From contig CAWHAA010000006.1 in NCBI GenBank assembly GCA_963827275.1, positions 8,961 to 72,960 on the forward strand: a stretch of DNA of 64,000 nucleotides. The letters run 5' to 3'. Under the pieces are notes generated by a model. It was not told the DNA's origin. It made no database searches and worked only from the letters and a program-made list of their open reading frames with translations. The position numbers and the translations under genes are program-made. Positions 49,801 through 52,800 of this stretch are shown in pieces. The DNA is from an uncultured Spirochaetota bacterium (GTDB lineage: Bacteria; Spirochaetota; UBA4802; UBA5550). Positions within the stretch are counted from its first letter, which is position 1, and the number at the start of each line of letters is the position of its first letter.

Positions 49801-52800
49801 ACCGATTTGGTGAAAAAAGTTCTGAAACTGATTCAAACGGAAGTACAATTCGTTATGAATATGATGAATTCGGAAGGCTTGTAAAAACTGTCAACCCGGG
49901 TGACGAGTGGTCCAGTACAGTTATTTATAACATAACCGGTGATCCAAATACGCAATATATAGAGACACATGTTGCCGATGAATCAAGTTCTGGATTTCAT
50001 TATAAACGTCAATATATGGATGCACTTGGAAGGGTTTATAAAATTATCCAGAAGGCAGAAGAGACGGATGCCTTTACTCTTGAGCAGGAAGTGGATATTG
50101 AATTTAATGAGCATGGTCAAAAAAACAGAGAAACCATGCCGTATTTAATCGGTTCATATAACGAAAGCCCACTTTATATCAAATATAAATACGACTCGTT
50201 AAATAGATTGATCTTGATTGATTATCCTGATAATACTTCAAAAAAATTTATATTTGCAAATGAGGGTGATGGAGAATATTCTGAAACATTAATAGATCGT
50301 GATGGTACAATGCACAAGTTGGTTCGCAATGCAAGGAATAGGGTAATTAAAAAAATAGATTCTAATATTGTTAATACCTCATATTCATATAATAACGCTG
50401 GCTTGTTGTCATTGGTAACTTATACCGATGGTTTGAAAACAATGATAGAATATGATTCGCTTGGTAGAAAGGTGTCAATCTGTGATCCCAACACTGGTAT
50501 TTCATCATATTCTTATAACGATGCTGGTTATTTATTATCTTCACATGATGCAATGGGTAATACGGTATCATATGAATATGACGCGATTAATAGAATTAAA
50601 AAAATACATCATCCCGAGGGTACTGCCGATATTAACTACTACTATGATGATCCATCAATTAAAAACAGCCGGGGGAGAGTAACGAAAATAACAGACGGTG
50701 TGAGTGAATCGACTTTTGCATATGATGGCAAGGGACAAATAATAATAAAAACACAAAAGATTGATGGCATGAAATTTATATTCCAGATGGAATATGATAA
50801 AGTCGGGAGAGTTGCGCGTTTGACATATCCCGATGGGACAGCAATATCCCGTCAGTATGCTAATCTTGGGTATCTCAAAAATGTTGATTGGAATGGATAT
50901 TCTATCGTCCAGTATGGACGTTTCAAAGAAGATAAAAACAGCAGTATTCGGAATATTGAGAATCGGGTTTATCGAATCACTGGAGATGGTGTTGAGACCA
51001 ATATATTATATAATCCAGCTACTACCAAGCCTGAACGAATAGTGTCAAAAAAGAATTACGGTAGCGGTGACGTTATTGAAGATGTAACTTACGAATATAA
51101 TGTCTCTAATATAACATCTATAACCGACAACCTCGATAATTCAAAATCGCAAACCTTTGCTTATGATTCATTAAATCGCCTGATTTCCGCTGATGGCGTA
51201 TATGGTCATATCTCTTATAATTATGCAAACAATGGTAATTTAAGAAAGAAGGGCGATCTTGTACTTAATTATAATGATTCGTCTCATCCATATGCTGTGA
51301 CCAGTGATAGTGTGGGAAACAATTATTTGTATGATGATAATGGTAATATGATTTGCCGTAAGGGAAGTGAGCTTGTCTATGATAGTTTAAATCGTCTGAT
51401 GGCAATTAAAAATAATGGTAATAATATAGCAATCTATAATTATGATCATACTAATCATAGAATTAAGAAAACATTAGGAAATGGAACGGTCATTTACAAT
51501 ATCGAAAATTTATATGAAATTACGAGAATTCCTCAATATCCTGATCTTCATACAAAATATTTTTATGGTGTAAAAAATGAATTAGTCGCTCAAATGACTA
51601 TGGAAAATTCTCAACTTTTATCCTTTAACAATCCGTCTGTTATTAACAGCTATTATGCAAAGAATAATCTTAAGGGTCTTATATTATTCACATATGAGTA
51701 TTTGAATTATTTAAGCAATAACAAGAAAACATACCGTTATTTTATTTATGTAACTTTACTTCTTGGTTTTTTTGTATTGTTAACATTAACTTTTAAAAAC
51801 ATAATCATATATAAAAGTAGAATAAAAATTTTACCTGTTTGGGCAATAAAAACAGTGCCAGTACTTTGCTTTACTGTATTTGCATCATACGGTTTATTCG
51901 GCTGTAGTAATATGATCAGTGATTCTCATGACAATGGCGAATCTCCTTGGAATATTTTGATATATACGGATGTTAATCTACCATCCGGCACACCAGTTCC
52001 GGGAATGATGTTTTTTCATCCCGATTACAATAGAAATATAAGTTATGTTACCAATGCGCAGGGCGAAAAAATCTATCAGGCATATTATAAACCTTATGGT
52101 GAAATTTCTGAAATGTCAGGGAGAGATGTTGTTCGGTATAAATTTAATTCCCATGAGCATGACCAGGAATCTGGACTTATGTATTACAATGCCCGCTATT
52201 ATGATTCCAATATTGGAAGGTTTATTACCCCTGATACAATTGTCTTTGATCCGGGGCAGTCGCAAACATCCAATCGATATATGTATGTAGTTGGTAATCC
52301 TATCGCTCTCAATGATGCTACTGGCAATAGTCCTGAATCACAGCTTTATCTGTATGCTGAAACAATGATGGCCAATTGGTCTAAATGGTCTGAACAAGAA
52401 TCTCAAAAAAGTCTGGGCGTCCAGTTTTGTAAATCAATAATAAATTCATTTACAGGTATATTCTCATGGATAGAGGGAGGCTATAAAGGATTTCTATCCG
52501 GTTGGATTACAAATTTAATAAATTATCCTGGCTTTAGTTTGTCATATTCATACAATGCAGGCTGGGGAGTTACTGGAGGTTTATATGGCCGATATTATTG
52601 TATAAGCTGGGGTAATGGTTTCCACTGGCAGGAAAAAGGTCCCAACGGTGGCTGGAGCATCTATGGTACAGTTTCATTGAGTTATGAAAAACTTTCGGTT
52701 GGGCTGGCGACCTCATATAACTTTAATAAGCATTCAATAACAAATAATTTGCGCGTTAGTTTGAGTGATAGTGGTGGAGCCGTAGGTATTGGTTATACAT

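What the first reader, a model, noticed from the sequence alone, without database searches (positions are those of the whole stretch)
51600..52004. About 135-aa insertion with two hydrophobic helices, the second resembling a lipoprotein signal peptide, just before the RHS core
In typical Rhs proteins a short linker joins the last YD repeats to the core motif (yyyH-x-D-x-x-G-S...). Here KYFYGVKNELVAQMTMEN and MMFFHPDYNRNISYVTNAQGE are separated by about 135 residues.

The insert contains YFIYVTLLLGFFVLLTLTF (nt about 51741-51794). It also contains KSRIKILPVWAIKTVPVLCFTVFASYGLFGCSNM (nt about 51820-51915). The second segment has the n-region/h-region/L-F-G-C layout of a lipobox, yet it lies deep inside a 2156-aa ORF with no intervening start codon.

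Possible readings are a membrane-anchoring hairpin on the outside of the cocoon, a relic of a gene fusion, or an internal processing or translation-initiation site.
Basis: partly seen in the sequence, partly recalled or inferred. Interest (0 to 1): 0.65.

Follow-up and report, generated by a model that had tools for sequence, protein, structure and literature searches.

The report
Membrane hairpin with lipobox inside Rhs
A giant secreted Rhs "cocoon" toxin of an uncultured spirochaete carries a conserved 132-residue insert just before its plug: two membrane helices, the second built like a lipoprotein signal peptide. Only spirochaete Rhs proteins were found to have it, and it probably anchors, and perhaps cuts, the toxin container at the membrane.

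Summary
ORF 46788-53273 (2161 aa) has a signal peptide, SpvB, FG-GAP, RHS shell, RHS core and a variable C-terminal domain. Residues 1608-1739 (nt 51609-52004) are an insert between the last shell strand and the core.

The insert reads in this order:
- juxtamembrane helices
- TM1
- a K/R loop, net charge +5
- a 17-residue h-region
- L-F-G-C, with Cys1706
- an acidic Gly/Pro-rich tether

AlphaFold2 models helices here, not shell strands.

The layout recurs in about 70 protein clusters. All 15 genome loci recovered with the insert profile are Spirochaetota, five of them Leptospira. Gly-Cys are the only invariant insert columns. Solved Rhs structures, Pfam, NCBIfam and the searched literature lack it. 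Two stand-alone genes start with a homologous lipoprotein-type signal.

Best reading (about 0.55):
- TM1 is a stop-transfer helix and TM2 is an internal type II signal.
- The periplasmic cocoon is membrane-tethered and Cys1706 is lipidated.
- LspA probably cuts shell from plug plus toxin.

Lipidation and cleavage are inferred, not shown. I rate it a new variant of a known kind.

The parts
46803..46883 (+). N-terminal Sec-type signal peptide (MKCLYFSIQIVILFVLIIIKSQLFLFA|D). It sets the topology: everything up to TM1 is exported.
   Evidence: Kyte-Doolittle peak at aa 4-36. Full-length clade members all have an equivalent N-terminal signal followed by (D/N)xNPDGS.
46884..51608 (+). SpvB N-terminal domain, FG-GAP propeller and RHS/YD shell, up to the last shell strand KYFYGVKNELVAQMTMEN.
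   Evidence: Pfam SpvB, FG-GAP, FG-GAP_3 and RHS_repeat. NCBIfam YD_repeat. The AF2 model shows beta strands up to model residue 645, which is aa 1606. The best Foldseek TM-score is to TcdB2-TccC3, PDB 4o9x.
51609..51737 (+). First part of the insert (aa 1608-1650): two short juxtamembrane helices ending in the basic NNKKTYR.
   Evidence: AF2 helices at model residues 655-661 and 667-681, pLDDT 70-85. Conserved in the near clade.
51738..51794 (+). TM1 (aa 1651-1669, YFIYVTLLLGFFVLLTLTF), inferred stop-transfer helix.
   Evidence: Kyte-Doolittle mean 2.2. Summed Hessa-scale free energy about -2.1 kcal/mol, with scale values taken from memory. It lies within the AF2 helix at model residues 685-713. 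A matching hydrophobic peak is present in 66 of 71 representative clusters.
51795..51851 (+). Basic loop, or n-region (aa 1670-1688, KNIIIYKSRIKILPVWAIK, net +5), inferred to be cytoplasmic.
   Evidence: Net positive in all 19 clade members parsed and in 63 of 72 sequences. The Pro of the P-x-W motif is nearly invariant.
51852..51905 (+). TM2, or h-region (aa 1689-1705, TVPVLCFTVFASYGLFG), plus the lipobox L-F-G-C with Cys1706 (nt 51903-51905).
   Evidence: Single hit of the PROSITE-style lipobox pattern in the protein. G and C are the only invariant insert columns. A Cys closes TM2 in about 70 of 71 clusters. Position -1 is Gly in 38 of 50 and position -3 is L, F, V or I in 38 of 50. AF2 models a helix at model residues 723-741.
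51906..52004 (+). Tether (aa 1707-1739, SNMISDSHDNGESPWNILIYTDVNLPSGTPVPG): acidic, Gly/Pro/Thr/Ser-rich linker.
   Evidence: AF2 coil with pLDDT 46-58. Across the family its length is 13-115 aa and its composition is G 15.5%, P 10.8%, K+R 2.6%. The flank is net negative in 58 of 72.
52005..52328 (+). RHS repeat-associated core (plug), MMFFHPDYNRN...NPIALNDATGN, with Asp1821 and Asp1843 22 residues apart.
   Evidence: TIGR03696 at 69.2 bits against a cut-off of 32.5. Matches to solved Rhs cores 8h8a, 7q97 and 8cp6. Asp spacing. The same 22-residue spacing separates the two Asp mutated in the Tse15 cleavage-mutant entry listed.
52329..53273 (+). Variable C-terminal cargo domain (about 314 aa, Gly/aromatic-rich, no family assignment).
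   Evidence: No Pfam hit. Cargo domains across the insert clade are polymorphic: Gly-zipper, Tox-REase-7, Peptidase_M23 and unknown types.
53279..53860 (+). Adjacent small lipoprotein gene, candidate immunity protein. Its N-terminal lipobox is F-Q-S-C.
   Evidence: NCBIfam LIC12231 family lipoprotein, E = 5.6e-11, below the family cut-off. Homologues follow the same cargo type in L005 and L006. N-terminal sequence.

Best explanation
The insert is a membrane-integrated helical hairpin built into a Sec-exported Rhs cocoon.

Proposed sequence of events:
1. The N-terminal signal peptide sends the SpvB, propeller and shell part (about 1600 residues) across the cytoplasmic membrane.
2. TM1 (aa 1651-1669) stops transfer.
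3. The K/R-rich loop stays in the cytoplasm.
4. TM2 (aa 1689-1705) restarts export of the plug and cargo.
5. TM2 has the layout of a type II (lipoprotein) signal peptide. Lgt is therefore expected to add diacylglycerol to Cys1706, and LspA to cut in front of it.

Expected result: a periplasmic cocoon held at the membrane. The shell fragment would end in the hairpin. The plug plus cargo fragment would begin with a lipidated Cys on a flexible tether of about 33 residues. The core's own aspartyl cleavage would then free the cargo inside the shell.

Shown here:
- the anatomy of the insert
- its helical character in the model
- its charge asymmetry
- its conservation, restricted to spirochaetes in what was recovered
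- homology of TM2 to N-terminal signals of stand-alone genes
- lspA and an lgt-like gene in the genome

Inferred, not shown: membrane integration, lipidation and LspA cleavage.

Speculative: that a lipid-tethered, covalently detached plug helps to localise or open the cocoon.
For: 1. Anatomy. The insert reads signal-like n-region (+5), 17-aa h-region, L-F-G-C and acidic tether. The lipobox pattern hits the 2161-aa protein only here.

2. Topology logic.
- All full-length relatives keep an N-terminal Sec signal.
- TM1 is hydrophobic enough to integrate on its own: Kyte-Doolittle 2.2, family median summed Hessa value -0.76.
- The loop is net positive in 63 of 72 sequences and the distal flank is net negative in 58 of 72.

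3. Selection.
- In the 15-sequence insert alignment, the only invariant insert columns are the G and C of the box.
- Among 71 clusters at 50% identity or less that cover the whole insert, 66 have two TM peaks.
- 66 have a Cys after at least 10 uncharged residues, and 4 more have a Cys with Asp or Glu at position -1 or -2.
- 40 match the strict pattern.
- Gene G+C ranges from 34% to 58% across the clade, so conservation is at the protein level.

4. Dialect match. Non-canonical internal boxes (LPGC, xNGC, xxNC, FQSC) are the same variants seen in N-terminal lipoboxes of neighbouring small genes in these loci.

5. Natural experiments.
- The stand-alone genes P0164 (L024) and P0176 (L023) have in-frame stops upstream.
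- Each starts with Met, a basic n-region, an h-region and a lipobox, then tether, RHS core and cargo.
- P0164 is clearly homologous to the internal segment of P0012.
- An orphan cassette in L025 begins its homology exactly at TM2.

6. The tether behaves like a lipoprotein tether. It is modelled as disordered, is Gly/Pro/Ser/Thr/Asp-rich, and varies from 13 to 115 aa.

7. The genome has lspA (107 bits, over the cut-off) and an lgt-like gene at 107 bits, just under its 118.9-bit cut-off.

8. AF2 models four helices in the insert (pLDDT 70-85) and resumes strands at the core.
Against: - No experiment and no dedicated predictor (SignalP, LipoP, DeepTMHMM) could be run.
- I found no precedent for an internal type II signal in the library searched. 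Lgt and LspA are known to act on N-terminal signals, and whether LspA tolerates a signal tied to an upstream TM helix is unknown.
- Four clusters have Asp or Glu at position -1 or -2, which is atypical for a lipobox, and one (P0167) lacks the Cys.
- Only 40 of 71 clusters match the strict PROSITE-like pattern.
- TM2 alone is only marginally hydrophobic, with a family median of about +1.9 on the summed Hessa scale.
- After cleavage the shell would stay tied to the inner membrane by the hairpin. That makes onward transport by Lol or delivery to a target hard to picture.
- The position of the hairpin relative to the shell, outside or inside, could not be read, because only confidence and secondary structure were returned for the model.
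- Most short core-plus-cargo ORFs are ordinary truncated orphans. Only 2 to 4 carry a complete signal.
Confidence: 0.55

Rival explanations
1. The insert is a plain transmembrane hairpin with no lipid modification. It either anchors the cocoon in the producer's cytoplasmic membrane, or it is a hydrophobic element that later inserts into the target cell's membrane to help the cargo cross. The second option would be analogous to the N-terminal TMDs of prePAAR T6SS Rhs effectors. The conserved Cys would have another role, such as helix capping or a disulfide.
For: - Two hydrophobic helices recur in 66 of 71 clusters.
- Some cargo must reach the target cytoplasm, for example Tox-REase-7 in P0013.
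- Four clusters keep the Cys but have Asp or Glu next to it, which is poor for Lgt.
- No TcA or other translocator was found in the genome or in conserved gene neighbourhoods.
Against: - It does not explain why Gly-Cys are the only invariant insert columns.
- It does not explain why the variants follow the local lipobox dialect.
- It does not explain why the segment serves as the N-terminus of stand-alone genes.
- There is no second conserved Cys in the insert for a disulfide.
- A Sec-exported protein cannot keep such a hairpin soluble for later use without a chaperone, and no conserved partner gene exists.
Confidence: 0.25
2. The insert is a recombination scar with little present function. 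The swappable cassette in this family would be a once-independent lipoprotein toxin gene made of signal, tether, core and cargo. The hairpin would then be merely the topologically neutral way of joining it to an exported shell.
For: - The orphan cassette homology in L025 starts exactly at TM2.
- Stand-alone ORFs with signal, tether, core and cargo exist.
- The loci are mobile: the gene is low-G+C in high-G+C flanks both in the window and in L005, and transposases lie nearby.
Against: - Hairpin, charge bias and Cys are maintained in about 70 clusters that are at most 50% identical to each other, across 34-58% G+C. That argues for selection, not for a neutral scar.
- Every other Rhs has shell and core contiguous. 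A core with cargo but no shell is unlikely to be the ancestral functional unit.
Confidence: 0.1
3. Internal translation initiation: a separate lipoprotein (plug plus cargo) is translated from a start inside the ORF.
For: The segment looks like an N-terminal signal. Stand-alone versions exist elsewhere.
Against: - There is no ATG or TTG between TM1 and the Cys.
- The only GTG lies inside the h-region and has no Shine-Dalgarno sequence.
- No Met or start position is conserved among relatives.
Confidence: 0.03
4. Assembly or annotation artefact, such as a chimeric join or indel, in a metagenome-assembled genome said by earlier notes to contain indel errors.
For: Earlier notes of this scan report single-base errors elsewhere in this assembly (not checked here).
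Against: - The frame is open for 2161 codons.
- The same collinear architecture is present in independent assemblies and in cultured Leptospira genomes.
Confidence: 0.01

Closest known systems
TcdB/TcaC-class Rhs polymorphic toxins (signal peptide, SpvB, integrin-like propeller, RHS; Zhang et al. 2012, PMC3482391) and the TcB-TcC cocoon of Tc toxins (PDB 4o9x)
   Same: - Same domain order.
- Best structural match is TcdB2-TccC3, TMq 0.53.
- RHS core with two Asp 22 residues apart.
- Polymorphic cargo with adjacent immunity-like genes.
   Different: - A 132-aa helical hairpin with lipobox lies between the last shell strand and the core.
- It is absent from all solved Rhs, Tc and teneurin structures that matched and from the non-insert relatives.
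- No TcA partner was found.
- The 12 passages shown from Zhang et al. (of 39 with the search terms) do not mention such an insert.
Bacterial lipoprotein precursors (type II signal peptide; Lgt, LspA and Lnt pathway)
   Same: A basic n-region, a 15-20 aa h-region, a [LFVI]-[TFSA]-[G]-C box, a small residue at +2 and a disordered tether. The processing genes are present in the genome.
   Different: The signal sits at residue about 1690 of a 2161-aa protein, behind a stop-transfer helix, not at the N-terminus. Processing is unproven.
prePAAR T6SS Rhs effectors with N-terminal transmembrane domains (Ahmad et al. 2020, bioRxiv 10.1101/2020.10.28.356139, listed; RhsA structure 7q97)
   Same: An Rhs cocoon combined with hydrophobic helices outside the repeat shell. 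Those helices are proposed to deal with membranes.
   Different: There the TMDs are N-terminal, chaperoned by Eag proteins and delivered by the T6SS. Here the helices are internal, next to the plug, in a Sec-exported protein with no PAAR domain, and they end in a lipobox.
SitA lipoprotein polymorphic toxins of myxobacteria, delivered by outer-membrane exchange (Vassallo et al. 2017, PMC5562445, listed)
   Same: A polymorphic toxin whose delivery module is a lipoprotein signal, with immunity genes adjacent.
   Different: SitA has an N-terminal lipobox and no Rhs shell. No TraA/B-like exchange system was examined here.
Viral and eukaryotic polyproteins with alternating stop-transfer and internal signal sequences cut by signal peptidase (textbook knowledge, for example flavivirus polyproteins)
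   Same: The same topological logic: an exported domain, a stop-transfer helix, a short cytoplasmic loop, an internal signal with a cleavage site, then the next exported domain.
   Different: A different kingdom and a different enzyme (type I signal peptidase). This is an analogy only.

Membership tests
Rhs/YD-repeat polymorphic toxin, TcdB/TcaC export class | N-terminal signal peptide followed by an SpvB domain and an integrin-like (FG-GAP) propeller | tested here: met
   Hydrophobic N-terminus at aa 6-32. Pfam SpvB 62.9 bits, FG-GAP_3 73.3 bits, FG-GAP 43 bits.
Rhs/YD-repeat polymorphic toxin, TcdB/TcaC export class | RHS/YD repeats forming a shell | tested here: met
   RHS_repeat 130 bits. 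YD_repeat_2x 68.7 bits. AF2 beta spiral with pLDDT mostly above 85. Foldseek E = 1e-34 to 1e-37 to Rhs and Tc cocoons.
Rhs/YD-repeat polymorphic toxin, TcdB/TcaC export class | RHS repeat-associated core with the two catalytic Asp of the autoproteolytic site | tested here: met
   TIGR03696 at 69.2 bits against a cut-off of 32.5. Asp1821 and Asp1843 are 22 residues apart. Activity was not tested.
Rhs/YD-repeat polymorphic toxin, TcdB/TcaC export class | Variable C-terminal toxin with a cognate downstream immunity gene | tested here: met
   Cargo domains differ between clade members. The downstream small lipoprotein gene co-occurs with the same cargo type in L005 and L006. Toxicity and immunity were not tested.
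Tc (ABC) toxin complex, BC component | A TcA pentamer partner encoded in the genome | tested here: inconclusive
   No match to PF18276 or PF03538 in the 92%-complete genome. The control genomes gave no positive either. No conserved neighbour gene across 14 loci.
Bacterial lipoprotein (Lgt/LspA substrate) | Lipobox [LVI][ASTVI][GAS]C preceded by an uncharged h-region and a basic n-region | tested here: met
   The box is L-F-G-C, the h-region is 17 aa and the n-region is +5. The strict pattern is met in 16 of 18 close relatives and in 40 of 71 clusters.
Bacterial lipoprotein (Lgt/LspA substrate) | The signal lies at the N-terminus, with the Cys within about the first 15-40 residues | tested here: not met
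   The Cys is residue 1706 of 2161. Only the stand-alone homologues P0164 and P0176 meet this feature.
Bacterial lipoprotein (Lgt/LspA substrate) | Processing enzymes present in the organism | tested here: met
   lspA at 107.1 bits, over the cut-off. An lgt-like gene at 107 bits, just under the 118.9-bit cut-off.
Bacterial lipoprotein (Lgt/LspA substrate) | Covalent diacylglyceryl modification and globomycin-sensitive cleavage | not testable with these tools
   Needs labelling, mass spectrometry or inhibitor experiments.
prePAAR/T6SS Rhs effectors with TMDs | N-terminal prePAAR motif, PAAR domain and Eag chaperone | tested here: not met
   No PAAR family among the Pfam hits. The N-terminus is a signal peptide plus SpvB. 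No conserved chaperone-like neighbour.

The most novel reading that the evidence does not exclude
This would be the first natural example of an internal type II (lipoprotein) signal peptide.

Lgt and LspA would act in the middle of a 240-kDa exported protein and cut the Rhs cocoon into two pieces. One piece is a shell that ends in a membrane hairpin. The other is a plug that starts with a lipidated Cys.

The plug would then be a lipid-tethered cork, no longer covalently joined to the shell. Pulling or sorting it, for example by Lol extraction, transfer to the outer membrane or membrane contact with a neighbour, would localise the loaded container and could open it. That would give Sec-exported Rhs toxins of spirochaetes, Leptospira included, a delivery route that needs neither TcA nor a T6SS.
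Probability: 0.3. Interest if true: 0.85.

Novelty: new variant of a known kind. Interest (0 to 1): 0.72.

Why it matters
How Sec-exported Rhs and TcB-TcC-like cocoons without a TcA partner or a T6SS are positioned, opened and delivered is an open question. Here a whole family shares a conserved, sharply defined sequence device next to the plug:
- about 124 clusters in 1.84 billion representatives
- all 15 genome loci recovered are Spirochaetota
- the loci include pathogenic Leptospira species

The device gives a concrete, cheaply testable hypothesis about membrane tethering and host-enzyme processing.

If the internal lipobox is used, two things follow:
- The substrate rules of Lgt and LspA, which are antibiotic targets, would extend beyond N-terminal signals.
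- Lipoprotein predictors that look only at N-termini would be shown to miss a class of substrates.

It would also define the swappable cassette of this toxin family as signal, tether, core, cargo and immunity.

Tried and rejected
- Reading the position of the hairpin relative to the shell from the AF2 model was not possible. Only pLDDT and DSSP are returned and no coordinates are placed in the Python box. Inside versus outside remains untested.
- A single origin of the insert could not be shown. A quick maximum-likelihood tree of shell plus core, with insert columns removed (47 rows), clusters the insert-bearing proteins but needs 4 changes, of which at least 2 are forced by supported branches. 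The non-insert outgroups sit on long branches.
- I looked for a conserved partner gene (chaperone, translocator or protease) around 14 loci. Nothing is shared except the Rhs gene and cargo-specific downstream genes.
- Pfam and NCBIfam scans of the insert alone at E up to 10 gave only noise: SPOR at E = 0.22 and PhrA at E = 2.5.
- Literature searches found no description of the insert. The terms included 'internal lipobox', 'internal lipoprotein signal', Rhs with lipobox, Rhs with cocoon and lipoprotein, and Leptospira with RHS.
- The search for many stand-alone genes with signal, core and cargo showed that most short hits are ordinary 5'-truncated orphans. Only P0164, P0176 and perhaps P0183 carry a complete signal.
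- The P-P-W motif after the Cys looked conserved at first, but it is present in only 17 of 50 parsed sequences.
- Internal initiation was rejected.
- Rfam found nothing in the region.
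Full report
**1. What is there**

The window is about 55-65% G+C, apart from a 30-38% G+C island at about 46-58 kb. The island's main gene is ORF 46788-53273 on the + strand, 2161 aa from TTG. The database copy starts at ATG 46803 and is 2156 aa.

Domain assignments:
- Pfam finds SpvB, FG-GAP, FG-GAP_3 and RHS repeats.
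- NCBIfam finds YD repeats, and the RHS repeat-associated core at aa 1767-1846.
- The N-terminus is a Sec-type signal.

This is the signal peptide, SpvB, propeller, RHS architecture that Zhang et al. 2012 call the TcdB/TcaC class (PMC3482391).

The last shell strand, KYFYGVKNELVAQMTMEN, ends at aa 1607. The core motif, MMFFHPDYNRN, begins at aa 1740.

The insert holds the only two strong hydropathy peaks outside the signal peptide:
- TM1, aa 1651-1669
- a basic loop, aa 1670-1688, net +5
- a 17-residue uncharged stretch, aa 1689-1705, ending in L-F-G-C with Cys1706 at nt 51903-51905
- an acidic Gly/Pro-rich stretch, aa 1707-1739

A PROSITE-style lipobox pattern hits the whole protein once, at this position.

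**2. It is an insert, and it is helical**

Relatives with the same overall architecture but without the segment align to both flanks. They leave a gap of about 135 residues in the query.

Solved Rhs and teneurin-like structures behave the same way. Their flanks are adjacent: residues 2015 and 2020 in 9ifo, and about 1012 and 1066 in 8h8a.

I ran an AlphaFold2 model of aa 962-2161 with 33 homologues (mean pLDDT 75):
- confident shell strands up to aa 1606
- four helices in the insert, pLDDT about 70-85, at model residues 655-661, 667-681, 685-713 (containing TM1) and 723-741 (TM2)
- a low-confidence coil for the tether
- strands again from the core onward

The shell part is most similar to TcdB2-TccC3 (TMq 0.53) and to T6SS Rhs cocoons. 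Whether the hairpin points away from the shell could not be checked.

**3. It is a conserved family trait, found here only in spirochaetes**

*Close relatives.* A word-indexed search found 17 proteins that carry the insert, at 30-75% identity.

*Profile search.* A profile of the insert searched against 1.84 billion representative proteins found 124 clusters, 71 of which cover the whole insert. Among those 71:
- 66 have two hydrophobic peaks
- 66 have a Cys after at least 10 uncharged residues
- 4 more have the Cys with Asp or Glu next to it
- one lacks the Cys
- 40 meet the strict lipobox pattern

*Alignment and positional preferences.*
- In the 15-sequence alignment, the only invariant insert columns are the Gly and Cys of the box. 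The Pro of a P-x-W motif at the start of TM2 is nearly invariant.
- Position -3 is L, F, V or I in 38 of 50 parsed sequences. Position -2 is mostly T, F, S or A. Position -1 is Gly in 38 of 50, followed by N, S, Q and A.

*Charge.*
- The TM1-TM2 loop is net positive in 63 of 72 sequences.
- The 15 residues after TM2 are net negative in 58 of 72.

*Tether.*
- It runs from 13 to 115 residues. P0017 has a long Ser/Thr/Pro run.
- K+R make up only 2.6% of it.

*Taxonomy and composition.*
- A scan of one genome per prokaryotic species returned 15 loci. All are Spirochaetota: MAGs plus Leptospira haakeii, L. alstonii, L. alexanderi, L. weilii and L. adleri.
- Gene G+C ranges from 34% to 58% across the clade.
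- In the window and in its closest relative (L005), the gene is low-G+C inside high-G+C flanks, so the locus moves horizontally.
- Earlier notes of this scan call the host an uncultured spirochaete. That fits, but I did not verify it independently.

**4. Evidence bearing on the lipoprotein-signal reading**

(a) The non-canonical internal boxes (LPGC, FNGC, VNNC, YSNC, FQSC) are the same variants used in the N-terminal lipoboxes of neighbouring small genes in these loci. One example is the candidate immunity gene at 53279-53860, which has F-Q-S-C.

(b) Two stand-alone genes, P0164 (L024) and P0176 (L023), have in-frame stop codons upstream.
- Each begins with Met, a basic n-region, an h-region and a lipobox.
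- Each continues with tether, RHS core and cargo.
- The N-terminus of P0164 (…YTYHPIWARGVSIILVIALFTITGC) is plainly homologous to the internal segment of P0012 (…HTQPIWIKGISIILVTAMFTITGC).

(c) In L025, a silent orphan cassette downstream of a full-length gene starts its homology exactly at TM2. The exchangeable unit therefore appears to be signal, tether, core, cargo and immunity.

(d) The genome encodes lspA and an lgt-like gene.

(e) No usable internal start codon exists here, and none is conserved in relatives. The segment is thus not the N-terminus of a separately translated protein.

**5. Mechanism proposed**

All full-length members keep an N-terminal Sec signal. The chain therefore enters the periplasm N-terminus first.
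1. TM1 is hydrophobic enough to leave the translocon sideways and stop transfer.
2. The basic loop stays in the cytoplasm.
3. TM2 re-initiates export with its C-terminal end outside. This places the lipobox Cys at the outer face, where Lgt and LspA act on ordinary prolipoproteins.

I therefore propose membrane tethering of the folded cocoon, lipidation of Cys1706 and, probably, LspA cleavage at Gly1705|Cys1706. Asp1821 and Asp1843 are 22 residues apart, as in characterised cores. Together with the core's own aspartyl autoproteolysis, this would give three chains:
- a shell that ends in the hairpin
- a lipidated plug of about 140 residues
- free cargo

Integration, lipidation and cleavage are inferences. 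That a detached, lipid-tethered plug helps sorting or opening is speculation.

Difficulties:
- I found no precedent for an internal type II signal.
- Some boxes are atypical.
- A shell that stays anchored in the inner membrane is hard to reconcile with delivery to another cell.

**6. Context**

Cargo domains in the clade are polymorphic: Gly-zipper, Tox-REase-7, Peptidase_M23 and several unknown types. Downstream genes co-vary with the cargo, and many are lipoproteins. No gene other than the Rhs gene is conserved around the 14 loci. No TcA-like gene was found in the genome, although that search lacked a positive control.

**7. Novelty**

No Pfam or NCBIfam model covers the insert. No solved Rhs structure has it. 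Seven full-text searches found no description of it.

The protein is a clear member of the Rhs, TcdB/TcaC-class toxins. The insert is a new, lineage-specific variant of that kind. It fails one defining feature of lipoproteins, an N-terminal position, so I describe it as working like a lipoprotein signal rather than file the protein as a lipoprotein.

**8. Verdict**

The internal-initiation reading is rejected.
- Confidence in the combined hairpin and internal-lipoprotein-signal model is about 0.55. The hairpin alone is about 0.8.
- Interest is 0.72.

Noticed in passing
L025:7900-9080, and the main gene at L025:355-6630: Downstream of a full-length insert-bearing Rhs gene and its immunity-like gene lies an orphan core-plus-cargo cassette. 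Its homology to the main gene begins exactly at the first residues of TM2 (…LWSSAVSLMLVISIIVSFSLTGCDD), directly after an in-frame stop. In this family the recombination unit seems to start inside the hairpin loop, not inside the core.
   Followed up: partly
L023:1153-2604 (P0176) and L024:247-1353 (P0164): These are stand-alone genes made of a lipoprotein-type signal, a tether, an RHS core and cargo, with no shell. Both have in-frame stops upstream. P0176 overlaps the stop of the preceding small gene by 4 nt.
   Followed up: partly
window 52329-53273, compared with P0004, P0006, P0012 and P0016: The window's cargo domain shares a motif, HP(I/V/H)(A/G)V(L/F)HD, and a Gly/aromatic-rich region with cargo domains of otherwise distant clade members. 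It ends in …WLGGF. No family is assigned. Another finding of this scan covers it.
   Followed up: no
window 51906-51960 and the relatives' tethers: A (D/G)-x-P-P-W motif lies 8-15 residues after the lipobox Cys in the window's subclade and in the Leptospira versions (GDPPWILAMGAN). It is present in only 17 of 50 parsed sequences. Its role is unknown.
   Followed up: partly
window 46030-58559; L005: The Rhs gene is about 35% G+C inside flanks of 53-60% G+C, both in the window and in its closest relative. In Leptospira the gene matches its flanks. This suggests transfer from a low-G+C spirochaete donor.
   Followed up: partly
window 53279-53860: The 193-aa downstream gene matches the NCBIfam LIC12231 family lipoprotein (E = 5.6e-11, below the cut-off). 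Homologues sit behind the same cargo type in L005 and L006. It is a likely immunity protein located in the periplasm.
   Followed up: partly
literature: L. interrogans LA1765 / LIC12047: [quoted passage not shown] A 2026 transcriptome study lists an RHS-core gene and its adjacent lipoprotein gene as strongly down-regulated in a host-like chamber (PMC13066512). I did not check whether these genes belong to the insert clade.
   Followed up: no
window 43759-44535: An Rce1-like CAAX-type intramembrane protease gene lies about 2 kb upstream of the island, in native high-G+C DNA. It is probably unrelated, but it is a membrane protease near a gene with a putative intramembrane processing site.
   Followed up: no
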